This document shows, piece by piece, positions 44,965-63,123 of a DNA stretch of 64,000 nt; the first letter of the stretch is position 1; the number at the start of each line of letters is the position of its first letter. Source of the DNA: Colwellia sp. 39_35_sub15_T18. Lineage in GTDB: Bacteria > Pseudomonadota > Gammaproteobacteria > Enterobacterales > Alteromonadaceae. Position numbers and translations under genes: made by a program. Location of the stretch: NCBI GenBank assembly GCA_002162675.1, contig MAAE01000015.1, forward strand, positions 34,438 to 98,437, given 5' to 3'. The notes beneath the pieces are model-generated. The model did not search any database, had not been told where the DNA came from, and worked only from the letters and a program-made list of their open reading frames with translations.

Positions 44965-45465
44965 ATGTCAAACATATTGCTTGCTGAATTGAGCAACATG
45001 CCAGCCAACTCAAAATCAACAGTCATGTTGAAAGAGTACCTTAGTAAGTTGTTAAAAGAAGGCTGGAAGTTACCGGAGGGCAACAGCAAGGAAGGTGTTG
45101 ACATAACGGCTCTTACGAACTCAGCGGGGCTTGGGCGACAGGCGTTTTACCCTGACCGAGGTGCCGCTGAAACTATAACAATGTACCAATGGGCAGTGAA
45201 AAAAATTGGTATTGAAACCATTATTGAGCGAGAAGAACGCGCATTAAATTCAGACACAACTGACGCAGAAATATTAAAGACGATGCTGAAAGAATCCGAA
45301 AGAAAGCTTGGAGATAAAGGTAAAGAAGTTCTGAAGTTACAGGCACATAACAGAAACCTTGTTAAGCAACTTAAAAAACGTAATGACGAGATCGAGCAAA
45401 TGAATTCCGTCAATACAGCGCGTCTGGATGGATATGAGGTGATAATCCCGTGGATAAACGAATAA
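44965..45465 (+). CDS. Small HTH-like plus coiled-coil protein in the recombinase operon
   Basis: VDITALTNSAGLGRQAFY HTH-like segment followed by heptads; ATG 1 nt after the previous stop. Confidence 0.65.
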   Translation: MSNILLAELSNMPANSKSTVMLKEYLSKLLKEGWKLPEGNSKEGVDITALTNSAGLGRQAFYPDRGAAETITMYQWAVKKIGIETIIEREERALNSDTTDAEILKTMLKESERKLGDKGKEVLKLQAHNRNLVKQLKKRNDEIEQMNSVNTARLDGYEVIIPWINE

Positions 45466-45476
45466 TTAACAGCTTC

Positions 45477-47498
45477 ATGTTGGTGACATCCATTCGCCCA
45501 CAGCTTAACTCTGTTAGCGTCTCTGGCACATACGACAAGCAACAACGCACGGCTGAATTTCCAGACCTCAATAATATTCCGCGTGTTGGGGATTTAATTC
45601 AGATGAACGGCATCCTTGTACAAGGGGAGCGTCGAAGAGTTCTGAAAGTAAAAAGTTGGAAGCTTACACCTGCGACTGCCGCAAATATTTTTGAATTCAT
45701 TAAACGCGCTATATCCTTTAAGAGTGTCTTAAATAATCGACAGCTAAAAGCCCTTCATAAAGCCTACTTTGCCTTTCCAAGGCGGCTCATTGCAGCTATG
45801 TCGGGAAATCGAACAGCAGAATTGGAACGAGTCGTCGGTTGTTTCATGACTGCCGCCAAACTTGAAGGGGCTTGGGAGGTTCATCTCCGTGAACTCAAGG
45901 TTGTGCACTATTTGTCAGAATACAGCTTAAACCCGCAGGAGGCGCTCGCTATGCTCGATTTACATCACCTTAAAGTCATTGAGGTTGTTGAAACCAACCC
46001 CTACGCGCTGATGCCTGTCATAGGCTTTGAACGAGTGGACGCTATCTGTATGAAAAAAGGGATTGATGAATTTGACCCTCAACGGCTTGCTGCCCTTGGC
46101 TGTTACTTAGCTAGAAAGCAAACGCAGAATACTGGCAGTAGTCTGTTAAGCGAACATGACTTCAATATCGGAGCACAGGAGTTTGGGGTTGATACTCGTT
46201 CAATAATTTATGAATCAAAGCGCAGTGGGGTCTTGATTGTAAACGGGGAGTGTATAACTTCAGCTTGCTATCACGAGATGGAAACAAGGATTCGCACCTA
46301 TCTAACACAAGTAGAAAGGCTTCCTTGTGTGATGTTTCATGATTACGAAATTGACACTGAAATATCTCTATTTAACCGGATTGGAATATTCCCTTTGCAT
46401 GAAAAGCAAGCTTTGGCTGTTCGGCTCGCTATGCATCATCCAATCACCTGTATACGAGGCGCGGCAGGGGTTGGAAAAACAGAAGTCATCAATGCTATCT
46501 CAACCATTAACAAGCGAATGACAGGAACGTCTGTGACATCAACCGCGTTGAGTTCAATTGCTGTTGATCGTATAAAACAAGCCACAGGTCTTAAAGAATG
46601 CTACACAATCGCAAAACTCAAATCCGACTACTTGCTGAAAAAGCTAGACATCAAAGCTGGCACAATCTTAGTAGTTGATGAAAGCTCTATGCTGAGCGTT
46701 CAGGATCTATATGTGCTCTGTAACCTCGGTCTTCGTGATGTTCGTATAGTGTTTGTTGGTGACACAAATCAGTTAGAACCGATAGGTTACGGCTCTTTCT
46801 TTAAACAAGCGACACAATACTTTCCAACCACAACATTAACAAAAGTATGGCGAGCTGAGGCAAAAGAAATAACTTTTGCAGCCAACACTATTTTGAACGG
46901 TGAACGACCAAGTGCTCAAGGTGCATTTGGCTATATAAAAAGACAGATAAATGAAATAGTATCTTATGCACACGAAGAGAATGCACAAGTTATCGCTGCA
47001 ACAAATAGAACAGTGGCAAAGATAAACACGGAGATCCAAACAGCTAAATATTCTGCATCTGCGGTGCCAGACCTCTCGATTATGTCAACACCTTTTTATC
47101 GAGGTGATAGAGTGATTTTCACTAGGAACTTGAATAACTTAGGAATATACAATGGACAGTTTGCCAAGTTCGTATGGGCTAAGAACAACGAACTAGTATT
47201 TCATCTTGAAACTGCAAGCGGGAAGCACAGTGAAAAGATTATTAGTTATCATCAGGCTGCCAATGCAGGTGTTCAATTGGGGTACGCTTGTACGGGACAC
47301 AAGTCACAAGGGGCTGGCTTCGACAAAGTTGTAGCGGTGATGGAGAATATACCTATGTGCAATAAAAACTGGGCATACACAGCAATAACAAGAGCGAAAA
47401 AAGAAGTACGTGTTGCTGAAATTACAAGGCTAGAAACTGTGATGAACCAACCAATTCTACAACGAATGACGCAACGAATGGTTCCGCTAGTGTCTTAA
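45477..47498 (+). CDS. RecD2-like SF1B helicase/ATPase
   Basis: GAAGVGKT, VVDESSM, VGDTNQLEPIG, GYACTGHKSQG, YTAITRAK; N-terminal NPY..GFERVD segment; ATG at 45477 preferred over 45450. Confidence 0.88.
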   Translation: MLVTSIRPQLNSVSVSGTYDKQQRTAEFPDLNNIPRVGDLIQMNGILVQGERRRVLKVKSWKLTPATAANIFEFIKRAISFKSVLNNRQLKALHKAYFAFPRRLIAAMSGNRTAELERVVGCFMTAAKLEGAWEVHLRELKVVHYLSEYSLNPQEALAMLDLHHLKVIEVVETNPYALMPVIGFERVDAICMKKGIDEFDPQRLAALGCYLARKQTQNTGSSLLSEHDFNIGAQEFGVDTRSIIYESKRSGVLIVNGECITSACYHEMETRIRTYLTQVERLPCVMFHDYEIDTEISLFNRIGIFPLHEKQALAVRLAMHHPITCIRGAAGVGKTEVINAISTINKRMTGTSVTSTALSSIAVDRIKQATGLKECYTIAKLKSDYLLKKLDIKAGTILVVDESSMLSVQDLYVLCNLGLRDVRIVFVGDTNQLEPIGYGSFFKQATQYFPTTTLTKVWRAEAKEITFAANTILNGERPSAQGAFGYIKRQINEIVSYAHEENAQVIAATNRTVAKINTEIQTAKYSASAVPDLSIMSTPFYRGDRVIFTRNLNNLGIYNGQFAKFVWAKNNELVFHLETASGKHSEKIISYHQAANAGVQLGYACTGHKSQGAGFDKVVAVMENIPMCNKNWAYTAITRAKKEVRVAEITRLETVMNQPILQRMTQRMVPLVS

Positions 47499-49981: not shown

Positions 49982-51361
49982 TTAACTGCATTTAGCGAAT
50001 ACCTCTAAGGCTTTTACTTGTTGCAACGCACAGTTTTTAGGCCAACCAAATCGCTTATCATCAGGAACACCTGCTGAAGTATCAAATGGCACTATCCATA
50101 AACTTAAGACACTCTCATCATCAAAATCAAAACTCTGCTCAATAGCCTCTTGAAAGTCAGCATGACTTGGGTAAATCAAAAATAGCTCACCTTTACCCTT
50201 TAAATATTTATGACCGTAGGCAAACATTTGATAAAAATCTGATTGTGATAAACCATATTTATTGTCTTCATCTGTTTGATTAATCAACTTCCACTTAGTA
50301 TCAAGTACGCAGGCACTTTGACCTTTTTTTATTCCGTTAGTGTAACGAAGTAAAAGGTCAGGTTTGAGTTGAAATCGTCTTTTACTTTTATGTTTAACCA
50401 AGTATTTAGAACTAGCTTGTGTCTTTAAACTTAAACCTTCAAGAGGATGTTTATTTAAAATACTCGCGACATAGCTTTCAAATACGGCTTCCATGGGGAA
50501 CAACAATGAAAAAGCATTACTTTTCCCTTGTAATGTTAGTGGTGAAAACCCTTCAAGAATTAGCCTTGTCCACGCAAGAGGGGCTTCATAATAATTCATA
50601 CCTCTATCGAGCTTGATACTGGCAAAATCATTCTTAATATTATTACTGACAGGTATGTCGGCAAAAGCAAACAGTAACTCTTGAATGAGTTTTTGGTTAT
50701 TGGCACTTCGACTGTAGCCACTTACTTTTTTTAGTGCTGTGTGAAGTAAACGATTTACGGGCCTATCTTGCTGATATTCTTCATACTCAACATAAAATTT
50801 ATGCTTATTAATGAAATTATGCTGAACTTGCTTGCCCACTAATAATTTACCTTTTAAGAAAGCAACATTATCTTGCTGTCTCACATAATCACTGCGTAAC
50901 CCTCGCTTAATTAGCGTATTTACCGCAGTCAAAAATTGGCTTATAAACACCTCTAATAACGGTATTTTATTTTTAGCCAAGTTAGCATTATGAGTTTGAA
51001 GATGGCGAAACTGCTTCAGTTCTTTTAACATCATCAACAGCGAGGCACGAGACACCTCTTTAGCATCACCACTTGCTATTTTTTTAGCAAGCTTTGGTAG
51101 AACTTCTATTTGTGTTCCGTCAGGCGTAAAAAGAACGCCTGCATAGTTTTGAACTTGCAGCACTTCACAATTATCAACCTGCTTTAAGCGTAAAAATCTA
51201 CTTTCTGATTCATCACACAAGCATAGTTTTTTTAAATAATCGTATGCTTTTTTAGAAATTGGTTTTATCTTGGCAGAGGCTTGGATTTTATTACTATCAT
51301 CATCGCCATTACCTAAATAACCAAATTCAAATACGGATGTTTGTTTCTTTACAACCAGCAT
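49982..51361 (-). CDS. mcrC: McrC-family restriction nuclease subunit
   Basis: VQNYAG, IEVLPK, LFPMEAVFE, LKPDLLL...LDTKWK...SDFYQMFAY; start overlaps the mcrB stop. Confidence 0.9.
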   Translation of the reverse strand: MLVVKKQTSVFEFGYLGNGDDDSNKIQASAKIKPISKKAYDYLKKLCLCDESESRFLRLKQVDNCEVLQVQNYAGVLFTPDGTQIEVLPKLAKKIASGDAKEVSRASLLMMLKELKQFRHLQTHNANLAKNKIPLLEVFISQFLTAVNTLIKRGLRSDYVRQQDNVAFLKGKLLVGKQVQHNFINKHKFYVEYEEYQQDRPVNRLLHTALKKVSGYSRSANNQKLIQELLFAFADIPVSNNIKNDFASIKLDRGMNYYEAPLAWTRLILEGFSPLTLQGKSNAFSLLFPMEAVFESYVASILNKHPLEGLSLKTQASSKYLVKHKSKRRFQLKPDLLLRYTNGIKKGQSACVLDTKWKLINQTDEDNKYGLSQSDFYQMFAYGHKYLKGKGELFLIYPSHADFQEAIEQSFDFDDESVLSLWIVPFDTSAGVPDDKRFGWPKNCALQQVKALEVFAKCS

Positions 51362-53646
51362 TAAGCGTTGCTCTTTTCAGCCACAACAGAGTCTTCACCT
51401 GTAGCAGGTTCTTCATTAACAGATGCTTTATCTATCTTTTTAAGTACAGTTTCATCATAAATTGCTTGGTATGCCAGATGGTTATGCCATGCAGAGTGCT
51501 CATCATCAAAATCAGCGAGTTTGAAGGTCGTCTTTTTATCTTCATAGGTTTCTAAACCATGATCTTCGCCAAAAATATCGTTATATGACGAGACATGCTT
51601 TTTAATGAAAACATATGGGATTAACGCCTTACTCTTCTTTCGATTATCACCCAGCACTAAACGTATTTTATTCCAATCTTCAAAAAAATATTCTTCTAAT
51701 AATGGGATGATTTTATTTCTAAAGACATGTTGAAGCTCTTCAAAGGCTTTATCTTCGTCTTCTAAATCAACTATGGCAGCAACAGGCATAAAGAACGCAT
51801 GACCTAGCGTATGCTCTCGGTCATAAAGCACTTCAATACGTTCATTCATTTTACTCAGTAACAAATTAAGCTTAATGCCGTTAACCGACTTACCTGCAAA
51901 TAATTCAGGTTTTGGCATCATTTCAACAAAATCAAAACGACGGCGTAATGCAGTATCCATCATCGCCAACGATCTATCTGCCGTGTTCATCGTACCAATG
52001 ATGTGAAGGTTGTCAGGAACAGAAAAAAGAACATTTGAATAAGGCAACGTTACTTCTATCGCTTCAGGTTGTCCGTTACGTTTTGATGGTTCTATTAGAG
52101 TAATTAACTCACCAAATATTCTTGAAATGTTACCTCGGTTAATTTCATCAATAATTAAAACAAAGTTTTTTCTTTCCACAGCAGGCATCTGCTCAGGAGC
52201 ACTAATCTCTCTTAAAAATTTGACTAACGGACGATAGTAAACTCCTAATCCAGACTTGTACTCACGTCTACCTTCAAAAATTTCTCTTAGGGTGGAAATA
52301 CTTAATGTGTGATCTTGGCTGCCACCTCTTTTTTCAAAAAATATCCGCTTGTCATTAAAGTCCAAAATTTTAAATGAGGTCTTAGACATATTCACTTCAA
52401 CGTAATCTTCTTCAGAAAACAGTTCTGTAAAAGCTAACCAAGCATTGTCGAAATTATATGTCGATTCAGAGGCTTTACTATTGAGAAACTTTTCGGCCTG
52501 ACGAGCTATGTCTTTAAAAACACCAGCTTCAACATCGTAGGATATATTGCCATCATCTGAAGAAGCTTTAAGCCCTTCAACAAATTCTTCATAACCATAA
52601 CTTTGATGAAAAGTAACAAACCTAATTCGGCCTTCTGACACTAAATCATCGTATTGCTCTTGATACTCTGCTCTTACTTCATCAATAGAACCTTCTTCAG
52701 GAGAAAATCCAGGCTCTGCCGCATTAACAGCTTCCACTATTGTATTATATGTTTTACCTGTTCCTGGAGGGCCATAAAGGATCTTATTTAAAGACCCTTG
52801 AGTTATTGTTGGATATTTCTGTTCATCAGAATTAACAAAACTTTCACTGTTATTTTTCATGAACAATTCAAAATTTTGTTTCGCACCGTTAAAAGCAAAA
52901 TCAATTAAGGCTTTACGTTCTGGTTTGTCTGGTAAGACTCTCCAAATACGTTTTTGATAGGTATACATGTACCAAGTTAATTTTTTAAAATTGGGTTGCC
53001 AGTCAACTTTTACGGTTTTACCATCATTTAAATTCTCAATAACGATACCAATAGCTTTGATATCCATGACCGATGCCATTTTTCCATTGTTATCAAAAGG
53101 TAAACCATGAGTTTGAGTGTATACTGACTTTATTGCGATCTTATCGCCTTTTTGTATTTGTTTTATTTTATCAGTATATTTCCCATCATTACCGCCTTGC
53201 CAGATACTTTCCTTAATAAACCGTTCAGTTTGGTCATCAACGCCACCATATGAAGCGCCTAAAAACCAATACACTTTATTACTTTCATCACTCTTTCCCT
53301 GTACTTCAAACCCCAAAGTGCTAGCTTTATCTACGAACCTTGAAATATTATCGATACCCCATTGAGTCGTTATCAATAACTCCCCATCTGTAACAGAAAT
53401 AATTTCATCATCTTTGGAAAAGTAACGATTATTTTTTTTATCATCAGAGTTTTCAGGTAATGCATCATATTCAATTTTATTTATAAAAATCCCTCTTGTA
53501 CCTTGCAGTTCATTAGGAAAAGCTTCGAGTAACTCCTGCAAGTTTGGCGCTTCATTTTCAACGTATTCCTTTATCACAGCTAAAACTAAACGGTTCTTAT
53601 GGTGAGAGCGCCCATTAAATATATATTTTGTAAAATCTTTTAGCAT
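51361..53646 (-). CDS. mcrB: McrB-family AAA+ GTPase with extended N-terminal specificity domains
   Basis: LYGPPGTGKT, TFHQSYGYEEFVEG, IIDEINRGN, GTMNTADRS, ALRRRF. Confidence 0.92.
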   Translation of the reverse strand: MLKDFTKYIFNGRSHHKNRLVLAVIKEYVENEAPNLQELLEAFPNELQGTRGIFINKIEYDALPENSDDKKNNRYFSKDDEIISVTDGELLITTQWGIDNISRFVDKASTLGFEVQGKSDESNKVYWFLGASYGGVDDQTERFIKESIWQGGNDGKYTDKIKQIQKGDKIAIKSVYTQTHGLPFDNNGKMASVMDIKAIGIVIENLNDGKTVKVDWQPNFKKLTWYMYTYQKRIWRVLPDKPERKALIDFAFNGAKQNFELFMKNNSESFVNSDEQKYPTITQGSLNKILYGPPGTGKTYNTIVEAVNAAEPGFSPEEGSIDEVRAEYQEQYDDLVSEGRIRFVTFHQSYGYEEFVEGLKASSDDGNISYDVEAGVFKDIARQAEKFLNSKASESTYNFDNAWLAFTELFSEEDYVEVNMSKTSFKILDFNDKRIFFEKRGGSQDHTLSISTLREIFEGRREYKSGLGVYYRPLVKFLREISAPEQMPAVERKNFVLIIDEINRGNISRIFGELITLIEPSKRNGQPEAIEVTLPYSNVLFSVPDNLHIIGTMNTADRSLAMMDTALRRRFDFVEMMPKPELFAGKSVNGIKLNLLLSKMNERIEVLYDREHTLGHAFFMPVAAIVDLEDEDKAFEELQHVFRNKIIPLLEEYFFEDWNKIRLVLGDNRKKSKALIPYVFIKKHVSSYNDIFGEDHGLETYEDKKTTFKLADFDDEHSAWHNHLAYQAIYDETVLKKIDKASVNEEPATGEDSVVAEKSNA

Positions 53647-53710: not shown

Positions 53711-54790
53711 TTAACTCTCTTGTTCTTCTGGGTAAGCCAGTGGTGTAACAGCAGACCATCCTTCGCGTGCTGGTGCATTATTCTGCGTTCTTATACAGCC
53801 ATCTTCAGTCGAAATAACTTTACCTTTTCGATGAATCATACCTCTAACAACAGATTTTCTTGGATGATGTTCATCTTCTTTGGATGCACTAACAATTGCT
53901 GTAAAAGTAGTGTCATCAGGTGCAGGTTGAAAGAAAGGTTTCTCACCTAACCAACGATCTAATAATTCAGTCGAGACATTTCGTCTAGAGCCATGATGTG
54001 GCACTTGAAAACGGTCTATACCTGGCAATGCAAGTCCAGCATATGGAGCATAATCAGCGGCTTCGGTTAATGCATCACGTCCAGCATCACCTGTAAGTAA
54101 TATTTTGTTGTCACATAAATAAGCATACTGAACAACACTCATTTCATTTTCCGCAGAAGTTGGATCTGATGAAAAATTCTCATCTCCCCAAAGCACAGCC
54201 ACTATGGTACGAGCAGCTTCATTCAACATTCCGAACAAGCCACTAAAAACATCTTCAGATTTTTCGTGATGTTCAGGGGTTTTATCAGACTCAACAACTA
54301 AATCTAAATATCGAGTTTTAGACGGAGCCATTACCGTAAACCCTCCAATAAAAGCACCTTGTAACGGCTCTTTTATAGTTATACCTTTTTGTGAGGCAAT
54401 ATCTTCTAACGCAACTAAGTTGGGGTATAATTCTTTTAATCTTTTCTTTAAATTTTCTACTGAAGTGAAACGCTTGAATCTATCGATAAGCTCGTCTGCA
54501 TAAAGCCACGGCCTCAACATCCATAGCTCACCAACATTATAACTTTCTAATACTGTTCTTAACCCACCAGCATGATCACCATCAGGATGAGTTACTACAA
54601 CTGCATCAATATAAGTTGGTGTGCCATAATGTTCATTTATATGCGCAACTACTTTGTCACCTGTAGCTTGAAAGCCGCCATCAACAACATGAATTCGTTG
54701 AACTCCATTGGTTTGATACCTAATGCAAATAGCATCGCCACTTTTTTTAGAATCAACGTTTAAAAAATCAATTTCATAAAAGTCATCCAT
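53711..54790 (-). CDS. MBL-fold metallo-hydrolase (ComEC/Rec2-like catalytic domain, standalone)
   Basis: VVDGG, THPDGDHAGG, LLTGDA, QVPHHGS, HHP. Confidence 0.85.
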   Translation of the reverse strand: MDDFYEIDFLNVDSKKSGDAICIRYQTNGVQRIHVVDGGFQATGDKVVAHINEHYGTPTYIDAVVVTHPDGDHAGGLRTVLESYNVGELWMLRPWLYADELIDRFKRFTSVENLKKRLKELYPNLVALEDIASQKGITIKEPLQGAFIGGFTVMAPSKTRYLDLVVESDKTPEHHEKSEDVFSGLFGMLNEAARTIVAVLWGDENFSSDPTSAENEMSVVQYAYLCDNKILLTGDAGRDALTEAADYAPYAGLALPGIDRFQVPHHGSRRNVSTELLDRWLGEKPFFQPAPDDTTFTAIVSASKEDEHHPRKSVVRGMIHRKGKVISTEDGCIRTQNNAPAREGWSAVTPLAYPEEQES

Positions 54791-55260
54791 TACTTCTCTT
54801 CCTTATTATCTTCACTCAACTTCCCATTTCTGGTTTTTTCTATGCCAAATAATGACTTACCAATTTCTTCAATTTTTGCCACAAATTTATCAACGTTTAG
54901 CCCTGCAAAAAAAGCAAATGCATAATAACCAAAATTACCAGCATCAGTGTCTTGAGACGCATCCAGAACAACTAAACCAGCTTTCAAAAATACATAAGCC
55001 ACAATCCCGCATATAAAACTGGTTAATGGTCGCAAGTAGTACCAAATTTCCCACGATTTAGTCCACCTGTCATGAACACAGCGATTGAGATAAACGGAGC
55101 GTAGGCAATACAAAACACCACCTAATGTGGCTATCAACGCACATCGAATTGCCAATTCACTCTCAGCTAATGATTCAGGCAAGCCAAATTGCTCTAGACC
55201 TAAAAATACAGACGCTATTATTAAAAGCATCACTACCAAATATGTAATCACCAATTTCAT
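54790..55260 (-). CDS. Uncharacterised multi-TM membrane protein
   Basis: About four hydrophobic segments; WYYLRP...G and FAFFAG; stop overlaps the MBL start. Confidence 0.75.
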   Translation of the reverse strand: MKLVITYLVVMLLIIASVFLGLEQFGLPESLAESELAIRCALIATLGGVLYCLRSVYLNRCVHDRWTKSWEIWYYLRPLTSFICGIVAYVFLKAGLVVLDASQDTDAGNFGYYAFAFFAGLNVDKFVAKIEEIGKSLFGIEKTRNGKLSEDNKEEK

Positions 55261-55273
55261 TTACGTTCCTTGT

Positions 55274-56440
55274 CTATAGTTCGCCAGAGAAAGCTTTTTG
55301 GCTCAAAGATTCAAACAATGGTTGATGACTTTGATTTTTAGCCCGTTGCAACAATTGCAATGTACTTTGAACTATTGATTCAAACCTCTCTTGCACACCT
55401 ATTGGTGGGACAATAACATCAAGAGACTCTACTTGCAGTTTTGTAAGAGCTTCTCTAGTTGCACCACCAGCACTAGCGATACTCATGATCTTTTGTTTGT
55501 AACTACTCGATGTAATTAACCTTGCTATAAAAATTGGCAATACCTTTTCTGGTTTAGTTCTTACGATACATACGTGCTGGTTAACTCTTGCGGGTAATAT
55601 GTCATTATCAACCAGCGCAGCCCTACAAACAGAAGCTCCCGTTATGTTCAATAAAAGATCATCTTTTTCAATTATCACGTTTTTTAACTTTTCAGCCTGT
55701 TCATCCGATATAAAAGCGAGATTTTTATGTACAAATTTATTGTCATGAACATTTAGACTACGGATTAACGAAATGCCTTGCTCAATATATGCCTCCTTAC
55801 CACCTCTAGGCGTAGAACCACTTCCTAACTTATTAGTTAGTTCTTTTAGTGATTTAACATCCCAACCTTTCGGATTGGTGACGGGATCGCCAAACATATC
55901 TAGGAAGACGCTGCGGAGGAAGTCGTCGGCGAGGTTGATGCCTTGTTGGCGTTTTCGGCGAATGGCATCGGCTTTATCTAATATCGTAACGATGCGTTTT
56001 TGCTCATTCAGTGGTGGCAGTAACATTGGATAATCTTTAAGAGCATCCATATCTACACCACTTTGACCAGCAGTGCGCTGTGATAAGCCATCAATTAATC
56101 GAAAAAGCTTATCTTGTTTCAAAAAATGGTAAAGATAATCTTTATCTACTTTTTCTGAAGGTTTTGCTTTCATTAAGGCAACATTATATGCACCTTCTAG
56201 CCCTTTTAATATTTGGAATACCGGGGGGCCATAACGCCCAATCATTACGTCATGCTTAGTACAAAACTTCTTAGTTGAGTCTTCTTTAATATAAGTTAAG
56301 TTCTTATCAGATTTATAATCTCTAATTTGCAATAAGCGAACATACCCTTCTTTAGGCTCATATATGAAGGAAGATTTTGGAGGTTGTGATCCACCAACAA
56401 AACTAACAACATCTCCAAGCTTAACTACAGGGCAACTCAC
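55274..56440 (-). CDS. hsdS: Type I R-M specificity subunit
   Basis: Two TRDs with conserved [10 protein letters not shown] and PPIGVQERF repeats; GTG start overlaps the hsdM stop. Confidence 0.92.
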
Positions 56441-58026
56441 AGCATTTTCTCCAACACTTTTAAATCAGCTAAAATTTCATTTTCTAAGCTCACTAGCTTA
56501 CCTAAGATCTCTTTTGGTGGATCGTAGCTTTCTTCTTCATATACAACTTCTTTGTAGCGGTTGATGGAAAGGTCGTATTTGTTCGAAGTAATATCATCTT
56601 TACTTACCCAAAAAGCTTTCTGAGTTTTATCGTTTTTGTCCGTTTCAGCAACGGATTTATCACGCGCTTTAAATTCAGCTACTAAGCTTGGCAAGTCATT
56701 ATCTTTAATTGGGGTACGTTTATCATCAAGCGAGAAACCATCGGCTTGTACATCATAAAACCAAACATGGTCGGTAGTGCCACCTTTAGTGAAAATTAGA
56801 ATAGCAGTTGATACACCCGCATAAGGTTTAAAGACACCACTTGGCAGTGAAATAACGGCTTCAAGCTGATTGTTATCAATTAATAACTGACGCAGTTGCA
56901 CGTGGCCTTTTGATGAACCAAATAATACACCATCAGGCACGATAGTCGCTGAGCGGCCACCCACTTGTAACATGCGCTCAATAAGCGCTACAAAAAGCAA
57001 CTCTGTTTTCTTAGTTTTAACTTTACGTAATAGTTCTGGGCAAACATCTTCTTCGTCTAATGACCCTTTGAACGGTGGATTGGCGAGAATAATTTGCATG
57101 CCGCCTTTTGCTTCATTAGGGAAGTTTTCACTAAAGCGCTGGCTTAAGGTATCTTGATAATGAATGTCGGGCTGTTTAATACCGTGCATTACCAAGTTCA
57201 TTACTGCAACACGTAACATGGTAGCGTCAAAGTCAAAGCCGTGAAACATGTCAGTATCAATGTGTTTTCTGTCTTCTGGTTCAATTAAGTCGCCAGAATA
57301 AAGTACATTTTCAACTTGCTTGCCATGGATATCTAACATCGGTATACCTGCATCATCGCCTTCGCTGATGAATAGTGGCTCTCGTTCAATGCCTTCGGCA
57401 GAGGTATATTTTTCCAGCAAGTATTCATAAGAAACAGATAAAAAACCACCTGTTCCAGTTGATGGATCGCAAATACGGCTGGTTTTATCAGGGTCCATGA
57501 TTTCAACCATGGCACGAATGATATGACGTGGCGTTCTAAACTGACCGTTAATACCTGCGGTTGTTAACTTACTAAGCAAGTATTCATATAAATCACCTTT
57601 GGTATCGGAATTATCAAGTGGCAAGTCGTTAACCATTTCTACCGCTTTTACCAATAAGCTTTGCTTTTGGATCATCAATTGCGCATCTTTCATAAACTCG
57701 GCAAACAGTGATCCTTCATTATCTTCTGATGAACTTGAAGCAAAAAATGGAAACAGCTCATCTTTTACCACTTTATAAAGCTCTTCAGCACCTAAATGGC
57801 GAATATTTTGCCAGCGCAAATGTTGCTGCTGTTCGTTAAAGCGGTGATTAAACGCTTTTTTAGTACGGGCGCTGCGTTTTTCATCAGCTTGTTCGTTCAT
57901 ATCAAGCATGCGGGCATACATTAAAAAGGTAATTTGCTCAATTACCGTTAACGGATTGGTTATACCGCCCGTCCAGAATTCTTCCCAAAGTTTGTCTATT
58001 TTGCTTTTTAGTGGACCAGTGATCAT
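56437..58026 (-). CDS. hsdM: Type I R-M N6-adenine methyltransferase
   Basis: [34 protein letters not shown]. Confidence 0.94.
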
Positions 58027-58110
58027 GTGGTTCTCTTCGTTTTGTTTTATTCGGCTGTGACTATAAATTTGTTAGTTAGCCTAATATTGATTTTAAAATT
58101 AGTATTAAAT

Positions 58111-61100
58111 TTAGATTCGGATTTCTTTTTCGATGCTTGTTGACTTATCGCCAAGTTCAACATCAAATTGTTTTATAAATTGTTCAATAACATCGGCTTG
58201 TTTTTCGTTAAATACACCGTCTAGACCCATGTCGTGAATTTGAGTAAATGGCGCATCATACAGTTGTTCTATTTGAATGGAACCATAACGAATTAAGTGG
58301 TTCTTTAACATGCTTATAAAGCGCAGTTGTTTAGCGTTAACATGAGTATGTATTTCTTGTACAAACTCCATAAAACTTTGCTCAATAGCAGCTTTATCCA
58401 TACCGACTATGGTTCGAAGGATTTTGTCTAGGCTTGCTGATGATTCAGGGAAAAATTCTTTAAGAGTATTTAAATCAACTTTCGGGTTTTGGGTATGCAC
58501 TAATGAGTTTAGTTGTACTAAATCATCTTTACTCACCGCAATACCCGCTCGTATTTTTTGCAAAACAACATCAGTTTCGAATAATGGTGACAGTGTTTTT
58601 TCTACCTCTTGACGGAATATTTGATAATCAATAGACACAATTTTGGTTGGCCTTTCAGTCACTATATAATCTGCTGCATCTTCTTTAATATCTAAGATGA
58701 GTTCTGGCTCAGGTACATAAGTACCTTTGTCACGCAAATGGATAATGCTACGCAGTGCTATGCGGCTTTCTTCTAATGCTGCAAAGGTTAAATCTTGCCA
58801 ATAGGCTTCAGTTTGTATTTTGGCAATATCACTTGCTTTAGCTCGCACTTCATTAAGGTGCATTTGCAGCGTTTCAACTTTGTTCATTACACTTTGCTTG
58901 GCCAAATCAATTTGACTTGGGTCGATATATACCAAGGTTTGAATGATTGCCATTTCATTATCAAATTTATAGGCTTCACTTTGCCCCATGATATTGCGCC
59001 ATTGCATCAGTGATGCTACTTGCTCAAACAAATTTGCTTTCATTTGCGGAGCGAATTGGTTGAGTGCTTTTTCATCTTTACATGCTTCAACGACTTGCCA
59101 GTTATCTCGTACAGCTATGGTATTCATATCAAGAGAACATACATCTTGATAAATTAATTTAATCACTTCATCAAAAGTTGCTACATCCGCTTTTTTAAGC
59201 GTGGTTTCAGCCAAGGTTAAACGTGATTCAAAAAGCTTTTGGGTAAGCGATTTGCTTTGCTTTACGTCTTCTTCTTCTGGGTCCATATCGAAGTAATCGA
59301 AGTTTTCCCAGTGATCGAATATCAAGAAGTGTGATTTATCTTTACCTTTGCCATAGAGGTCTTTACATAAACGTGTACCACGACCAATCATTTGCCAGAA
59401 TTTAACTTTCGACTTGATTGGTTTAGCAAAAACAAGGTTTACACATTCTGGTACATCAATACCTGTATCAAGCATATCCACTGACACAGCAATACGAACG
59501 CTATTTTCTTCACTTGATTTAAAGTCATCAGTGAGTTCTTCTGCTCGTTCAAATTTTGAGTGAATGAAACGACAAAAGTTACTGCCAAGTTGTGGGTACA
59601 TTTCACCAAATAATTCTACCAATAGTTCAGCGTGAAGTATGTTACGAGCAAAAACAATGGTTTTTCCCGGTAATTGCCCATCAACATCACGTATACCTTT
59701 TTCCATTAAGTTACGTAAAATAACACGGTTGGTATCTTTATTTTTAACGGCTTCATCAACTTGCTTTGCATCAAAGTTTAACTCGTTAGGATCGATACCC
59801 TGTTCTTCAAGCTGAGCAACCTGTTCGTCTGTTAGGTTATCTTTTTTAATGCCTTCACGTAGAAATTTTGTGGTAAAACTAACAATTTTATAAGGAACTA
59901 AGTTCTCTTCTTCAATCGCTTGTTCTAACGGATAGTTAGCTGTTGGCAATTTGAAGTCACAGCCAAATAACTGACAAGTTGAACGCGATACCATCTCGAC
60001 AGGTGTTGCGGTTAAACCGATCTCTAACGCATCAAAGTATTTAAAGATATCACCATATATATTATAAATAGAGCGATGTGATTCATCTGCCACTATAAGA
60101 TCGAAATATCCAACATCATACTTTTGAAATATGCTCATCATACCTGGGTATGTAGCGACAAATACACGAGCGCTGTCTGCCAATCCTTTTTTACTTTTAC
60201 CAACAACATACAAAGGTTCATTGGTATGTTCATTAAAGGCATTACCTGCTTGTTTTCGTAGTTCTTTTCGGTCACATAAAAACAAGACTCGCTTAGCCCA
60301 ACCTGCATCTAATAGTCGTTTAGCTAATGCGATAGAAACACGGGTTTTTCCTGTTCCTGTTGCCATAACCATAAGTGACTTGCGGTGTTTTTTGCTAAAA
60401 CGTTCGCTAACACGTGTGATAGCTTCCATTTGATATATGCGTCCTGCGACATTGGTATCAATTGGAGTTTGATTTAAGTCTTTTTTAAGGCTGCGTTGTT
60501 TTATAAGGTATTGCAGACTGTCTTTTGAGTAGTAACCGTATAGCTTACGGCTATTGTAACCTTGTGCATCGTCTAAAATACGAATGTCGTAGCCATTAGA
60601 ATAGAATATTACTGGACGTTGACCATATTGAGTTTCTAATGCATCAGCATAAATTTTGGCTTGTTCTCGACCTTTTTCAGCAGAGTGTTTAGCCGCTTTA
60701 GCTTCTATGACTGCTAGTGGTTTTCCATCGTCATCCCAAAGCACATAGTCAACTCGGCCATTACCTGTAGGTGTTGGTTGGTTAGTTACATCAACTTCTT
60801 TACCAACTTCATCGGTACTCGATTCATCAAGCGATACATCCCATCCTGCGGCACGTAAGTCCATATCAATAATACGAGCACGAGTTTCATCTTCGCTAAA
60901 GTTAAAGCTTGAGGTAATTTGTTTATTGCGCCCTTTAACTTCAGCCACTTTCGCTTGATTGATAGTTTGTTTAAGTTTGGCAGCTTCAAGCTGCGCTAGT
61001 TTTTGCGCTTGCTCAGATATGGCTAATTCTTCTAGTGCTTTTTTCAGGCGAGTTTCATTATCAGCGAGTTGCTCGGCAAGTTGCTTGTTCTTTTTAGTGA

Positions 61101-61551
61101 ATTCAGCGTCAGCCTGATTTACGGGCTGCTTTTGTTCTGGTGCTGTAAATACAGGACAATCGCTTTGCTTGCCATTGTCGTAAGCCATAAATAGATAACA
61201 GGCAATAAAATAGCTTTCTTTAAGTATCCAGATCGCTTGTTGTTGATCAACCTGACCTTGGTGGGCAGCTTGGTTGCCACTTTTACGAATAGCATGCAGT
61301 TTGTCGGTAATAAGATTTGGAACGACACTGGTGAAATCGTCAGACGTGAGTTTATCGTAGATAGTGGAATTAGGAAAAACAGGCAGTCGTAGCTCTTTGT
61401 AGAGATAACCAACGACTTGTTCAGCAAAGCAGCGTAACTTTACCAGTGCGCTTTGCGGATCATCAATAGCATATTCTTCTGCAAATGCAGCAAGCTGATG
61501 TAACTGTGGCCACCTTTTTTGAATATGTTCAAAATTCATTGATTGCTTCAT
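58111..61551 (-). CDS. hsdR: Type I restriction subunit R (EcoAI/EcoEI-like, N-terminal DUF4145-like domain)
   Basis: GRVDY...IEAK nuclease motif, MATGTGKT, DESHR, QMIGRGTR; start at 61551 or 61539 because ATG 61575 lies upstream of the predicted sigma-54 +1. Confidence 0.92.
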   Translation of the reverse strand: MKQSMNFEHIQKRWPQLHQLAAFAEEYAIDDPQSALVKLRCFAEQVVGYLYKELRLPVFPNSTIYDKLTSDDFTSVVPNLITDKLHAIRKSGNQAAHQGQVDQQQAIWILKESYFIACYLFMAYDNGKQSDCPVFTAPEQKQPVNQADAEFTKKNKQLAEQLADNETRLKKALEELAISEQAQKLAQLEAAKLKQTINQAKVAEVKGRNKQITSSFNFSEDETRARIIDMDLRAAGWDVSLDESSTDEVGKEVDVTNQPTPTGNGRVDYVLWDDDGKPLAVIEAKAAKHSAEKGREQAKIYADALETQYGQRPVIFYSNGYDIRILDDAQGYNSRKLYGYYSKDSLQYLIKQRSLKKDLNQTPIDTNVAGRIYQMEAITRVSERFSKKHRKSLMVMATGTGKTRVSIALAKRLLDAGWAKRVLFLCDRKELRKQAGNAFNEHTNEPLYVVGKSKKGLADSARVFVATYPGMMSIFQKYDVGYFDLIVADESHRSIYNIYGDIFKYFDALEIGLTATPVEMVSRSTCQLFGCDFKLPTANYPLEQAIEEENLVPYKIVSFTTKFLREGIKKDNLTDEQVAQLEEQGIDPNELNFDAKQVDEAVKNKDTNRVILRNLMEKGIRDVDGQLPGKTIVFARNILHAELLVELFGEMYPQLGSNFCRFIHSKFERAEELTDDFKSSEENSVRIAVSVDMLDTGIDVPECVNLVFAKPIKSKVKFWQMIGRGTRLCKDLYGKGKDKSHFLIFDHWENFDYFDMDPEEEDVKQSKSLTQKLFESRLTLAETTLKKADVATFDEVIKLIYQDVCSLDMNTIAVRDNWQVVEACKDEKALNQFAPQMKANLFEQVASLMQWRNIMGQSEAYKFDNEMAIIQTLVYIDPSQIDLAKQSVMNKVETLQMHLNEVRAKASDIAKIQTEAYWQDLTFAALEESRIALRSIIHLRDKGTYVPEPELILDIKEDAADYIVTERPTKIVSIDYQIFRQEVEKTLSPLFETDVVLQKIRAGIAVSKDDLVQLNSLVHTQNPKVDLNTLKEFFPESSASLDKILRTIVGMDKAAIEQSFMEFVQEIHTHVNAKQLRFISMLKNHLIRYGSIQIEQLYDAPFTQIHDMGLDGVFNEKQADVIEQFIKQFDVELGDKSTSIEKEIRI

Positions 61552-61577
61552 TCCTGTTTGATTCCTTGTGTCCATAA

Positions 61578-61620: not shown

Positions 61621-63123
61621 CTATTTTTCTGATGCTAAACCTAAACGCTTCATCCAGTTGCTTAGCGTTTGGTGGTCTTTTAATCCAAGCATCTTAGTTG
61701 CATGTTTCTTTATGTTCCCGCTTGCTTTCAATGCCGCTTCAACATAGTTTTTTTGATATTGTTCAGTAAGTTGAGTAATATCAACTTTGTCATTATAAGA
61801 TAATACGACATCTGTACAATCATTACTTTGATGTCGATTAATTATCGCATCACTAAGATCTTTATCTGTAATGATTTGTGAGTCTGACCACAAAAACGCT
61901 CTGTTTAATGTGTTCCATAATTCTCTAATATTACCAGGCCAAGACTGCGATAAAATAAAATTAATTCCCTTTTCGGAAATATTTTTACCTACGTAGTATG
62001 GATGTTTACAGCCAGCTTTGTTTATTTGCTTAGTAAGTTGCTCAACTATAAACGGGATATCTTCAGCTCGCTCTCGTAATGCAGGCATTTGAATAATGCC
62101 TACAGCCAAACGATAAAATAGGTCTTCTCGAAACTTTCCTTTACTTACTAGCTTCAATAAATCTTGATGCGTAGCTGCAATTACACGCACATCCACATTG
62201 ATTGTTTTTGTATCGCCTAGCCGATTAACTTCACCTTGCTGTAATACTCTAAGTAATTTAACCTGAATAGTCGGAGTAAGTTCTCCCACTTCATCTAAAA
62301 ATAAAGTTCCACCATTGGCTTGTTCAAAAAGACCAGGGTGATCTTTTTCTGCTCCGGTGAATGCACCCTTTTTATGACCAAACAAAGTAGAATCGACAAG
62401 GCTTTCAGCCAGTGCACCACAATTTACCGTTCTAATTGGTTTATTAGCTCTTAAGCTTCCTTGGTGTATGGCATTAGCCATTAATTCTTTACCTGTGCCT
62501 GTTTCACCTAATATCAAAGCTGACACTTCAGAACGAGCAATTCTCTTGGCTCTTTCGACAACTTCTTTCATCGATAGCGATTGCACAGTTAACTCAGAAA
62601 AGGCTTTTTCAATTTTTGGTAACGATGTTGCAGAATTAGCAATATTTCTGGCAGCCGACTTTACGTACACCTGACCAAAATCAATGGGAATCTCGACTTG
62701 CTGCAACTCATTTTTCGGTGTTGCCTGTAAGAATTGTACATTGGCTTTACCTTTACCTAAAAGAACAGACAAAGTAGTCATTGCAGGTGTACCTGATGTC
62801 AGGTTAATAGATAAGGTATCTGCGGCTTCGCTTAGTTTAGTTATCCAACTTTCAGTTACTTGGTGGATAGATTCATAGTCAATAGGGTTTACGATATCAG
62901 CTTTGTAAACTTGGATATCTTGAGCTGGTCTATTTATAGTTGCCATACGTTTTTTTACAAAACGTTCAAATTGAATCCATTTATTTTCATCTTTATTTGA
63001 AAGAATAACAATTTTATCAAATGGAATTAGTGATTTAGTAGCAAGTGTAATGATGGCAGCACTTTGTTCATGCTCCATATTTAAAATATCACGATTGCCT
63101 AACCAAGTAAGAAGTGTATGCAC
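61621..63123 (-). CDS. Sigma-54 enhancer-binding activator with RtcR/CARF-like N-terminal domain
   Basis: N-terminal TWLGNRD...INLTSGTPAM; GETGTGKE, GAFTGA, FLDEV, FREDLFYRL, WPGNIREL; C-terminal HTH; GTG start. Confidence 0.88.
   Translation of the reverse strand: MHTLLTWLGNRDILNMEHEQSAAIITLATKSLIPFDKIVILSNKDENKWIQFERFVKKRMATINRPAQDIQVYKADIVNPIDYESIHQVTESWITKLSEAADTLSINLTSGTPAMTTLSVLLGKGKANVQFLQATPKNELQQVEIPIDFGQVYVKSAARNIANSATSLPKIEKAFSELTVQSLSMKEVVERAKRIARSEVSALILGETGTGKELMANAIHQGSLRANKPIRTVNCGALAESLVDSTLFGHKKGAFTGAEKDHPGLFEQANGGTLFLDEVGELTPTIQVKLLRVLQQGEVNRLGDTKTINVDVRVIAATHQDLLKLVSKGKFREDLFYRLAVGIIQMPALRERAEDIPFIVEQLTKQINKAGCKHPYYVGKNISEKGINFILSQSWPGNIRELWNTLNRAFLWSDSQIITDKDLSDAIINRHQSNDCTDVVLSYNDKVDITQLTEQYQKNYVEAALKASGNIKKHATKMLGLKDHQTLSNWMKRLGLASEK

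What the first reader, a model, noticed from the sequence alone, without database searches (positions are those of the whole stretch)
53711..55260. Translationally coupled membrane protein and MBL hydrolase wedged between hsdS and mcrB
The two genes overlap (TAATG at 54790) and occupy the slot between type I R-M and McrBC, where accessory defence genes are often found. The hydrolase has intact HxDxDH and HHGS metal motifs but no ComEC membrane domain or signal peptide. The partner is a small multi-TM protein with no family I can name. It could be an undescribed two-gene defence module (nuclease or nucleotide hydrolase plus membrane effector).
Basis: partly seen in the sequence, partly recalled or inferred. 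Interest (0 to 1): 0.62.

Follow-up and report, generated by a model that had tools for sequence, protein, structure and literature searches.

The report
Membrane protein plus ComEC-like nuclease pair
Two overlapping genes between a type I restriction system and McrBC encode a small four-helix membrane protein and a ComEC-like metal-dependent hydrolase; the pair is a variant of a catalogued but untested candidate anti-phage module, and its membrane protein is also an unannotated companion of the known 6A-MBL defence system.

Summary
A 156-aa membrane protein (54790-55260, minus strand) and a 359-aa MBL-fold protein (53711-54790, minus strand) overlap in TAATG. The HPDGDH and HHGS motifs are intact.

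The pair is not undescribed.
- The MBL matches PADLOC candidate component PDC-M48B over its full length (E 3e-169). Its closest solved fold is the ComEC nuclease domain.
- PDC-M48A is itself a small membrane protein, so "small TM protein + MBL" is already a catalogued, untested defence candidate.
- The membrane partner here is different. It has no Pfam, NCBIfam or PADLOC hit, no detectable homology to PDC-M48A, and no PDB fold match.

Co-occurrence is strong.
- 73 of 80 genome loci centred on this membrane family carry an MBL gene. In 41 of them the locus is a 6A-MBL-type operon with E2/E1/JAB genes.
- 33-35 of 51 assessable loci centred on the MBL have an adjacent small multi-TM gene, drawn from at least five unrelated families (background 7/115).
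- This genome has no E2-E1-JAB gene.

Most likely this is a stand-alone form of MBL-based defence: a gated DNase working with a membrane partner. The mechanism is inferred, not shown. I class it as a new variant of a known kind, of moderate interest.

The parts
54790..55260 (-). mem: 156-aa small inner-membrane protein. Predicted 4 TM with N-in/C-in topology and a conserved cytoplasmic face. The family is unnamed.
   Evidence: ORF. At least 247 homologues. No Pfam, PADLOC or NCBIfam hit. AF2 model with pLDDT 87.7 has helices 2-25, 29-62, 68-98, 110-121, 123-138 and 144-154. No PDB fold match. Charge distribution follows the positive-inside rule.
53711..54790 (-). MBL: 359-aa cytoplasmic ComEC-like metallo-beta-lactamase-fold hydrolase, a probable DNase, of the PDC-M48B family.
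   Evidence: PADLOC PDLC04676 at E 3e-169, residues 1-358 against profile 1-356/357. Pfam PF00753 at 38.9 bits against a cut-off of 22.7. AF2 pLDDT 91.3. Best PDB fold match is the ComEC beta-lactamase-like domain 9ic4, E 1.7e-13. Best profile match to solved structures is also ComEC.
54788..54792 (-). TAATG stop/start overlap of mem and MBL, consistent with translational coupling.
   Evidence: Read from the sequence. ORF coordinates.
54572..54589 (-). Codons for HPDGDH (H68-H73), MBL metal-binding motif 2.
   Evidence: Sequence read. H68, D72 and H73 are invariant and D70 is at least 90% conserved among 53 homologues.
53987..53998 (-). Codons for HHGS (H265-S268), the distal metal-binding motif.
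   Evidence: Sequence read. H265, H266 and G267 are invariant.
54212..54271 (-). Codons for MBL residues 174-193, a variable and probably disordered loop. It is a candidate gating or regulatory insertion; this is inference.
   Evidence: It is the only segment of the AF2 model with pLDDT below 50, and the region is variable in alignments A3 and A7. Gating insertions exist in related protease-activated MBL nucleases (PMC12799240).
55030..55086 (-). Codons for mem residues 59-77 (NRCVHDRWTKSWEIWYYLR), a conserved basic loop predicted to be cytoplasmic.
   Evidence: Mean conservation is 3.1 bits, against 1.5 and 2.1 bits for the two predicted periplasmic loops. The family mean is 3.6 K+R residues in this loop. 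N59, W66, W70, W73, Y74 and R77 are invariant or nearly so.
54826..54897 (-). Codons for mem residues 122-145: the NVDKF motif, an amphipathic helix and the GIxxSR motif, predicted to be cytoplasmic.
   Evidence: These are the most conserved non-TM segments, at 3.4-3.6 bits. N122, V123, D124, F126, E131, I140 and R144 are invariant.
55274..61575 (-). Context only: the type I R-M genes hsdR (58111-61575), hsdM (56437-58026) and hsdS (55274-56440), directly upstream and co-oriented.
   Evidence: Pfam Methylase_S. PADLOC REase_I at E 2e-256. The same gene order occurs in L082 and L001.
49982..53646 (-). Context only: mcrB (51361-53646) and mcrC (49982-51361), directly downstream and co-oriented.
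   Evidence: Pfam AAA_5 and McrBC, and NCBIfam McrB and McrC.

Best explanation
The two genes form a stand-alone anti-phage or anti-mobile-element cassette of the class 'small multi-TM protein + ComEC-like MBL hydrolase'. This class includes PADLOC candidate PDC-M48. The cassette works without the E2-E1-JAB genes that accompany related MBLs in 6A-MBL systems.

Shown here:
- The pairing is conserved across phyla.
- The MBL has an intact, conserved metal centre and a ComEC-nuclease-like fold.
- The membrane protein's conserved surface lies on its predicted cytoplasmic side.
- The cassette is patchily distributed and sits in defence and mobile contexts.

Inferred:
- The MBL is a metal-dependent DNase that acts as the effector, as its protease-gated relatives do.
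- The membrane protein binds it through its cytoplasmic loop and C-terminal amphipathic helix. In this way it holds the enzyme inactive or positions it at the inner membrane.
- A membrane-linked event during infection, such as genome entry or envelope perturbation, then licenses DNA degradation. This destroys the invading DNA or aborts the infection.

The cassette is probably transcribed with the flanking hsdRMS and mcrBC genes.
For: Identity of the MBL:
- It matches PDC-M48B at E 3e-169, with weaker hits to the defence MBLs LmuA, RTasMBL and Avs1a.
- Its closest fold is the ComEC MBL nuclease domain 9ic4, E 1.7e-13. The closest sequence profile match to a solved structure is also ComEC.
- The metal ligands are invariant in 53 homologues.

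Function of related MBLs: defence MBLs of this ComEC-like group are gated Zn-dependent dsDNA nucleases that kill the cell (10.1101/2025.11.14.688446; PMC12799240).

Co-occurrence:
- 73 of 80 loci centred on mem hold an MBL gene.
- 33-35 of 51 assessable loci centred on the MBL have an adjacent same-strand ORF with at least 2 TM segments. The partners come from at least 5 unrelated families. The background is 7 of 115.
- PDC-M48A is one of those TM families.

Link to 6A-MBL:
- 41 of 80 mem loci carry E2/E1/JAB genes together with MBLs that score above the NCBIfam 6A-MBL cut-offs.
- The window's mem nests (support 100/96) inside a clade of such operons.

Stand-alone status: the genome has no 6A cap2_3 protein.

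Accessory and mobile character:
- The MBL occurs in only 2 of 61 relatives.
- The same hsdRMS-mem-MBL-mcrBC array occurs in L082.
- Elsewhere the upstream neighbours include a type IIG R-M gene and a DrmD-like SNF2 gene.
- 180 plasmids carry mem next to a 6A-type MBL/E2-E1-JAB block.

Conserved cytoplasmic face of mem.
Against: - No experiment exists for PDC-M48 or for this pair. Defence activity is inferred from context and relatives.
- Nuclease activity has been shown only for the protease-linked clade (Avs1a/HamM type). The window protein matches that clade only weakly (Avs1a 44.8 bits against a cut-off of 420). The second-best structural neighbour is a phosphorylcholine esterase, so a substrate other than DNA is possible.
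- No protease or other known gate is present.
- Membrane partners from at least five unrelated families are interchangeable, and mem switches between MBL clades. This fits an exchangeable effector as well as it fits an anchor or sensor.
- mem has conserved charged residues inside its TM helices (R54, K93). These suggest a channel-like role more than a passive anchor.
- My attempt to quantify defence-island enrichment of the neighbours was uninformative.
Confidence: 0.6

Rival explanations
1. CBASS/Pycsar-like logic. The MBL is the upstream sensing or signal-making (or signal-processing) enzyme, and the small membrane protein is the killing effector, a pore or channel. The window holds the 'type I' form and 6A-MBL is the 'type II' form, primed by Cap2/Cap3-like E2-E1-JAB.
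For: - In 6A-type operons the MBL occupies the place of the CD-NTase. Its C-terminus carries Gly/Ala tails (GGxGYA, PRVG, PRAG+3) of the kind suited to E1 adenylation, next to cap2_3-like proteins.
- PMC11601596 groups 'Type II CBASS/Pycsar/MBL' as pathways that conjugate their signalling enzymes.
- Unrelated small TM families are swapped beside the same MBL clade, as effectors are in CBASS.
- mem has conserved intramembrane R54 and K93.
Against: - Related defence MBLs are themselves the nuclease effectors (10.1101/2025.11.14.688446; PMC12799240).
- mem has only about 60 cytoplasmic residues and no recognisable ligand-binding domain.
- The window-type MBL ends in an acidic YPEEQES tail with no Gly, and the genome lacks E2-E1-JAB.
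- No signal molecule is known for any MBL system.
Confidence: 0.22
2. The pair is an accessory of the flanking restriction systems and not an autonomous module. For example, it could be a nuclease/anchor add-on that works only together with HsdRMS or McrBC.
For: - The genes are co-oriented with gaps of 13 nt and 64 nt, and no convincing promoter or terminator lies between them.
- The same hsdRMS-mem-MBL-mcrBC order occurs in L082, and hsdMS-mem-MBL in L001.
- Elsewhere mem overlaps the stop codon of a type IIG R-M gene or a DrmD-like SNF2 gene.
Against: - Only 2 of 160 related loci share the hsd/mcr neighbours. Most pairs sit in other contexts, including E2-E1-JAB operons and plasmids.
- Between the window and L082, McrB is 50% identical but the MBL is 89% identical. 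The neighbours are therefore mosaic and have not co-evolved with the pair.
Confidence: 0.08
3. The pair has a non-defence function: a membrane-associated phosphodiesterase or hydrolase for envelope or metabolite turnover, or a DNA-uptake remnant. In this reading the defence-island location is incidental.
For: - The second-best structural neighbours are the phosphorylcholine esterase Pce/CbpE and other phosphodiesterases.
- One source labels mem homologues 'H+/Cl- antiporter ClcA'.
- No experimental defence data exist.
Against: - The MBL occurs in only 2 of 61 relatives.
- The pair is carried on plasmids beside integrases.
- It is linked to the validated 6A-MBL system.
- The MBL family is listed by PADLOC.
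- Neither Pfam nor NCBIfam supports the ClcA label.
- The MBL is cytoplasmic, so it cannot reach the envelope.
Confidence: 0.06

Closest known systems
PADLOC phage-defence candidate PDC-M48 (components A and B; PADLOC-DB v2.0.0)
   Same: - It has the same two-gene architecture: a small multi-TM protein directly upstream of, and coupled to, a ComEC-like MBL.
- The window's MBL matches PDC-M48B model PDLC04676 end to end (E 3e-169).
   Different: - The window's membrane protein does not match any PDC-M48A model. None of 20 family members hit at E<=1, and hhalign against a PDC-M48A alignment gives probability 0.1%.
- PADLOC's rule for the two-component system would therefore presumably not call it.
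- PDC-M48 is itself untested. No paper in the searched library mentions it.
6A-MBL anti-phage system (operon type 6a of Iyer, Burroughs and Aravind 2006, PMC1779556; NCBIfam NF058523 cap2_3 and NF058524 MBL enzyme; anti-phage activity attributed to van den Berg et al. 2024 by PMC13276650 and 10.1101/2025.09.30.679545)
   Same: - It has a ComEC-like MBL enzyme.
- The window's membrane-protein family is encoded inside or beside 41 of the 80 sampled 6A-type operons and on 180 plasmids.
- The window's mem nests within a clade of mem-MBL-E2E1-JAB operons.
   Different: - There is no E2-E1-JAB gene in the window or anywhere in the genome.
- The window's MBL scores 21.9 bits against the 220-bit cut-off of NF058524.
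- It ends in YPEEQES, not a Gly/Ala tail.
- NCBIfam defines 6A-MBL by two proteins and does not list the membrane protein.
Protease-gated MBL nucleases of defence systems (HamM of Hachiman-HamMAB, Avs1a of AVAST type 1, CanC; PMC12799240; 10.1101/2025.11.14.688446)
   Same: - It belongs to the ComEC-like MBL group, with weak HMM matches to Avs1a, LmuA and RTasMBL.
- It carries insertions relative to the ComEC domain, including a disordered loop at residues 174-193.
- It is encoded as a separate gene next to its partner.
   Different: - The partner is a small membrane protein, not a trypsin-like or caspase-like protease.
- The matches are far below the family cut-off (44.8 against 420 bits).
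- Neither zymogen behaviour nor DNase activity has been tested for this clade.
ComEC C-terminal beta-lactamase-like nuclease domain (PMC8579336; PMC12455585; PDB 9ic4)
   Same: - It is the best structural and profile match.
- It works in a membrane-associated setting on DNA.
   Different: - In ComEC the MBL domain is fused to the competence channel and, according to PMC8579336, faces outward. Here it is a separate cytoplasmic protein with an unrelated 4-TM partner.
- TIGR00361 scores 38 bits against a cut-off of 190.
Kiwa (KwaA membrane sensor plus KwaB) and Zorya: a functional analogy only, drawn from my own knowledge of the field
   Same: - A membrane-embedded component is paired with a cytoplasmic DNA-directed effector.
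- PDC-M48A shows a marginal KwaA match (E 0.0034).
   Different: - The window's proteins have no sequence relation to these systems.
- The analogy was not tested.

Membership tests
PADLOC PDC-M48 | Component B: match to a PDC-M48B HMM | tested here: met
   PDLC04676 at E 3e-169 and 560.5 bits, residues 1-358 against profile 1-356/357.
PADLOC PDC-M48 | Component A: match to a PDC-M48A HMM (PDLC04670-04672) | tested here: not met
   The window protein has no hit at E<=10. None of 20 family members hit at E<=1. True PDC-M48A proteins score E 5e-62 and 2e-65 in the same library. hhalign of A2 against A4 gives probability 0.1%.
PADLOC PDC-M48 | Adjacent, co-oriented arrangement of a small TM gene and an MBL gene | tested here: met
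   A 1-nt TAATG overlap.
6A-MBL anti-phage system | cap2_3 protein (E2-E1-JAB fusion, NF058523) present | tested here: not met
   No match above the cut-off anywhere in the genome. The best hit is 53.9 bits against 320, consistent with housekeeping ThiF/MoeB-like E1s.
6A-MBL anti-phage system | MBL enzyme reaching the NF058524 cut-off | tested here: not met
   21.9 bits against a cut-off of 220. Bona fide members from related loci score 349-403 bits.
6A-MBL anti-phage system | MBL with a C-terminal Gly/Ala tail suited to E1 adenylation (my inferred criterion, by analogy with type II CBASS) | tested here: not met
   The window's MBL ends in ...AYPEEQES. 6A-type MBLs end in GGxGYA, PRVG, PMG or PRAG+3.
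Protease-MBL nuclease modules (Avs1a/HamM/CanC) | Partner trypsin-like, caspase-like or subtilisin-like protease encoded next to the MBL | tested here: not met
   The neighbours are mem, hsdS and mcrB. None has a protease domain in Pfam.
Protease-MBL nuclease modules (Avs1a/HamM/CanC) | MBL reaching the Avs1a equivalog cut-off (NF041809) | tested here: not met
   44.8 bits against a cut-off of 420.
ComEC/Rec2 | Competence membrane domain and OB fold fused to the MBL domain | tested here: not met
   The 359-aa protein contains only the MBL fold. TIGR00361 scores 38.4 bits against 190.
Metallo-beta-lactamase fold superfamily | Pfam PF00753 above the gathering score, intact metal-binding motifs and the MBL fold | tested here: met
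   38.9 bits against 22.7. HPDGDH, D235 and HH265-266 are invariant. Foldseek finds 52 PDB MBL-fold matches at E<=1e-3.
Anti-phage defence system (functional class) | Protection against phage, shown by experiment | not testable with these tools
   No experimental report on PDC-M48 or on this pair was found.

The most novel reading that the evidence does not exclude
ComEC-like MBL enzymes with small 4-TM partners may form a third CBASS/Pycsar-style family of immune pathways.
- The 'type I' form is TM + MBL, as in this window and in PDC-M48.
- The 'type II' form is 6A-MBL, primed by Cap2/Cap3-like E2-E1-JAB.

On this reading the membrane family found here is an overlooked functional component of 6A-MBL, including the copies on about 180 enterobacterial plasmids. 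It would act either as the membrane effector or as the site to which the conjugation machinery tethers the nuclease.
Probability: 0.3. Interest if true: 0.75.

Novelty: new variant of a known kind. Interest (0 to 1): 0.52.

Why it matters
MBL-based defence is only starting to be understood. The protease-gated MBL nucleases were described in 2025, and the 6A-MBL system has a phenotype but no published mechanism that I could find.

This locus, together with 160 related loci, shows three things:
- The same MBL clade is almost always paired with a small membrane protein.
- The membrane partner can be any of at least five unrelated families, of which only one is catalogued (PDC-M48A).
- One uncatalogued family, the one in this window, is embedded in or beside 41 of the 80 sampled 6A-MBL-type operons and on many clinical-type plasmids. 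NCBIfam does not list it as a component.

If the membrane protein is functionally required, current definitions of 6A-MBL and PDC-M48 are incomplete, and detection tools under-call these systems.

The pair in this window has only two genes and no E2-E1-JAB layer. That makes it a simple construct for asking how a membrane protein controls a ComEC-like nuclease, or is controlled by it.

Tried and rejected
- Homology of mem to PDC-M48A, or to the ~210-aa TM partner family: hhalign probabilities 0.1% and 0.5%. Rejected.
- Fold match for mem in the PDB: the best Foldseek E-value is 0.62, so nothing meaningful.
- The JGI label 'H+/Cl- antiporter ClcA' for mem homologues: neither Pfam nor NCBIfam supports it.
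- mem as the Ubl-like substrate of E2-E1-JAB: its C-terminus is a conserved GIxxSR motif followed by a variable hydrophilic tail with no terminal Gly. The 6A-type MBLs do carry Gly/Ala tails. Rejected.
- Simple tblastn with the window's MBL suggested that only 19 of 80 mem loci had an MBL. This was a sensitivity artefact. Clustering and HMMs raised the count to 73 of 80.
- Quantifying defence-island enrichment of neighbours with PADLOC in alignment mode: 266 models were hit, dominated by redundant methyltransferase models, with no usable fraction and no control. Inconclusive.
- PADLOC on ten large ORFs of the window. Apart from hsdR (58111-61575) and the RecD-like helicase gene (45450-47498), none hit, so the defence island is confined to about 39-63 kb.
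- Literature: 'PDC-M48' gave 0 papers. The primary 6A-MBL paper (van den Berg et al. 2024, Cell Host Microbe) is not held, so I could not check whether their tested construct included the membrane gene.
- A structure of the mem-MBL complex: the tool folds single chains only.
Full report
**1. Observation**

The ORF listing gives a 156-aa ORF at 54790..55260 (-) and a 359-aa ORF at 53711..54790 (-). In the sequence, the stop codon of the first (TAA, 54792-54790) and the start codon of the second (ATG, 54790-54788) share one base. This gives TAATG on the minus strand, and an AAGGAAG run lies about 8 nt upstream.

The first ORF starts 13 nt after the hsdS stop codon, and those 13 nt contain AAGGA. 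The second ORF ends 64 nt before the mcrB start.

The flanking genes are a type I specificity subunit, McrB and McrC. hsdR matches PADLOC REase_I at E 2e-256. The promoter/terminator scan finds nothing convincing between hsdS, the pair and mcrB: 11 terminator-like sites against 8.7 expected, and none in the two short gaps. The seven genes probably form one transcription unit.

**2. The hydrolase**

- Pfam PF00753 scores above its cut-off.
- PADLOC gives a full-length match to PDC-M48B model PDLC04676 (E 3e-169). It gives weaker matches to the MBL components of Lamassu (LmuA), DRT (RTasMBL) and AVAST type 1 (Avs1a).
- NCBIfam gives only sub-threshold matches to Avs1a, ComEC/Rec2 and the 6A-MBL enzyme.
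- A profile of 12 homologues finds ComEC MBL domains as the closest solved structures.
- An AF2 model built on 53 homologues has pLDDT 91.3. Its only disordered segment is residues 174-193.
- The model's best PDB match is the beta-lactamase-like domain of ComEC (9ic4, E 1.7e-13). Next come the phosphorylcholine esterase Pce and RNase J/CPSF73 nucleases.
- H68, D72, H73, D235, H265 and H266 are invariant among 53 homologues.

Two 2025 papers show that the protease-linked defence MBLs of this ComEC-like group are gated, Zn-dependent dsDNA nucleases that act as death effectors (10.1101/2025.11.14.688446; PMC12799240). The ComEC MBL domain is itself a nuclease (PMC8579336). DNase is therefore the most likely activity here. 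It is inferred, not shown.

**3. The membrane protein**

- It has no hit in Pfam, NCBIfam or PADLOC. None of 20 diverse family members hits PADLOC either.
- It is nonetheless a well-conserved family. At least 247 proteins were found across Pseudomonadota, Bacteroidota, Verrucomicrobiota, Planctomycetota, Omnitrophota and other phyla. Among 95 aligned sequences, 23 columns are invariant.
- The AF2 model (pLDDT 87.7) has three long helices, a hydrophobic short helix joined to an amphipathic helix, and a terminal helix. Foldseek finds no PDB relative.
- Family-wide charge counts fit a 4-TM, N-in/C-in topology. The two predicted periplasmic loops are acidic and poorly conserved (1.5 and 2.1 bits).
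- The predicted cytoplasmic loop 59-77, the NVDKF amphipathic helix and the GIxxSR motif are basic or mixed in charge and highly conserved (3.1-3.6 bits).
- Conserved R54 and K93 lie within the TM helices.

**4. Co-occurrence, seen from the membrane protein**

I fetched 80 genome loci centred on mem homologues. A plain tblastn with the window's MBL found an MBL in only 19 of them. Clustering of the neighbours, labelled BLAST and HMMs then showed MBL genes in 73 of 80. Of the remaining seven, three end at or near a contig edge.

- 41 loci also carry E2/E1/JAB genes. Their MBL and E2-E1-JAB proteins score above the NCBIfam cut-offs for the two defined 6A-MBL components (669 against 320 bits; 349-403 against 220 bits).
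- Arrangements include mem-MBL-E2E1-JAB (Yersinia, Pectobacterium, Enterobacter, Aeromonas, Idiomarina), MBL-E2E1JAB-mem, MBL-E2-mem (Bacteroidota), and a divergent [E2E1JAB<-MBL][WYL->mem] block (Pseudomonas).
- 180 plasmids, mostly from Klebsiella and E. coli, hold a mem homologue. The two I inspected carry that last block, with mem annotated as 'hypothetical protein'. No phage record holds mem.
- 31 loci have only PDC-M48B-type MBLs, as the window does.

**5. Co-occurrence, seen from the hydrolase**

I fetched 80 metagenome loci centred on close MBL relatives (41-89% identity). Only about 12 contain the mem family. Most of the others carry a different small membrane gene, tightly coupled to the MBL:
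- a ~165-aa family, which turned out to be PDC-M48A itself (E 5e-62 and 2e-65);
- a ~210-aa family;
- a ~260-aa family encoded downstream;
- at least one more family.

Of 51 loci with enough flank on both sides, 33-35 have an adjacent same-strand ORF with at least 2 TM segments. Among other ORFs of similar size the figure is 7 of 115. Eight loci have an E2-E1-JAB gene upstream instead, and three of those also show the 6A-type MBL gene ahead of it. mem has no detectable homology to PDC-M48A or to the ~210-aa family.

'Small TM protein + this MBL clade' is thus a robust design with non-homologous replacement of the membrane part. PADLOC's PDC-M48 captures one version of it.

**6. Place of the window's copy**

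- In a maximum-likelihood tree of 80 mem proteins, the window groups with L001 (Glaciecola MAG, 74% identity). Both nest with 100/96 support in a 12-member clade whose other ten members come from mem-MBL(6A)-E2E1-JAB operons. The tree needs at least 10-12 changes of partner architecture.
- The window's genome has no cap2_3 protein.
- 6A-type MBLs end in Gly/Ala tails (GGxGYA, PRVG, PMG, PRAG+3), as expected for substrates of a Cap2-like E1. The window-type MBLs end in an acidic ...YPEEQES tail.
- The window therefore holds a derived form that is independent of E2-E1-JAB.
- The MBL is present in only 2 of 61 related genomes.
- The same hsdRMS-mem-MBL-mcrBC order recurs in a TARA contig (L082). 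There the MBL is 89% and mem 96% identical, but McrB only 50%. In L001 the order is hsdMS-mem-MBL. The array is mosaic.
- In the window, defence genes are confined to about 39-63 kb (earlier notes).

**7. Mechanism**

Best supported (0.6): a stand-alone defence cassette in which the MBL is a gated DNase and the membrane protein is its regulator, anchor or sensor, acting through its conserved cytoplasmic face.

The main rival (0.22) reverses the roles along CBASS lines. In that reading the MBL is the upstream enzyme and the membrane protein is the pore effector. It is supported by three points:
- the MBL sits in the CD-NTase-like position in 6A operons;
- the membrane partners are interchangeable.

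Weaker rivals are an accessory role for the flanking restriction systems (0.08) and a non-defence hydrolase (0.06).

No experiment on PDC-M48 or on this pair was found. The primary 6A-MBL paper is not held.

**8. Comparison and novelty**

The pair works like PDC-M48 and shares its B component, but it fails the A-component test. It fails every defining test for 6A-MBL, for the protease-MBL modules and for ComEC. I therefore file it as a new variant of a known kind.

Earlier notes of this scan, from other genomes, reached similar readings. I consulted them after my own analysis. They are not independent evidence.

The points of interest are the uncatalogued membrane family and its unannotated link to 6A-MBL operons and plasmids. 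They make a minimal two-gene construct available for testing how membrane proteins and ComEC-like nucleases cooperate in immunity.

Noticed in passing
L002-L013, L019-L026, L034, L049, L068, L077 and others (6A-type MBL genes): MBLs encoded next to E2-E1(-JAB) end in Gly/Ala tails (GGxGYA, PRVG, PMG, KAG, or PRAG followed by 2-3 residues). This fits E1 adenylation and JAB trimming of the MBL C-terminus, as for CD-NTases in type II CBASS. PDC-M48B-type MBLs lack such tails.
   Followed up: partly
L165 (E. coli plasmid NZ_CP054225.1) and L166 (V. parahaemolyticus plasmid NZ_CP085859.1); 180 plasmid records in all: The two plasmids inspected share a conserved four-gene block, [E2-E1-JAB ('Mov34/MPN/PAD-1') <- MBL] [WYL regulator -> mem]. 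It lies beside integrases on the E. coli IncF plasmid and on the conjugative Vibrio plasmid. mem is annotated as 'hypothetical protein'.
   Followed up: partly
L028, L037, L038, L045, L051, L052, L057 (Bacteroidota): A variant operon, MBL - stand-alone E2 (~217 aa, with a SEC-C motif; PADLOC E2 at E 2e-50) - mem. No E1 or JAB was detected within 6 kb.
   Followed up: no
L001:3530-4483, L016, L036, L044, L039, L064-L067, L072-L073: Many stand-alone mem loci carry two MBL genes of different PDC-M48B sub-clades (PDLC04673, 04674, 04676) around the membrane gene. The window has only one.
   Followed up: no
L125, L128, L136 (metagenome contigs): A 6A-type MBL + E2-E1-JAB operon is followed directly by a window-type MBL (53-54% identical, with the same ...YPEEQES tail) and no membrane gene.
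   Followed up: no
L016, L017, L030 and L060, L061: The mem start overlaps the stop codon of a DrmD-like SNF2 helicase gene (PADLOC DrmD at E 3e-204) or of a type IIG restriction-methylase gene (E 2e-257). This suggests the cassette repeatedly docks onto other defence genes.
   Followed up: no
window 61621-63123 (-): An RtcR/PspF-like CARF-AAA-HTH enhancer-binding protein (PADLOC PDLC01995, E 3e-180) lies directly upstream of, and co-oriented with, hsdR. It is the subject of another note of this scan and may control the whole hsdRMS-mem-MBL-mcrBC array.
   Followed up: no
window 51361-53646 (-), McrB residues 3-116: The N-terminal ~115 residues of McrB match the C-terminal parts of PADLOC candidates PDC-S57 (E 4e-12) and PDC-S11. 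This may be a shared DNA-reader domain.
   Followed up: no
L008 (Apirhabdus apintestini): The MBL, E2-E1 and JAB genes of the mem-MBL-E2E1-JAB operon are each split into two ORFs, while mem is intact. This is probably a decaying copy.
   Followed up: no
L087:11-529, L096:243-749, L139:3131-3796: PDC-M48A-type and another TM partner give marginal PADLOC matches to KwaA and to the type VI-B CRISPR-associated membrane proteins Csx27/tm_4 (E about 4e-3 to 6e-4).
   Followed up: no
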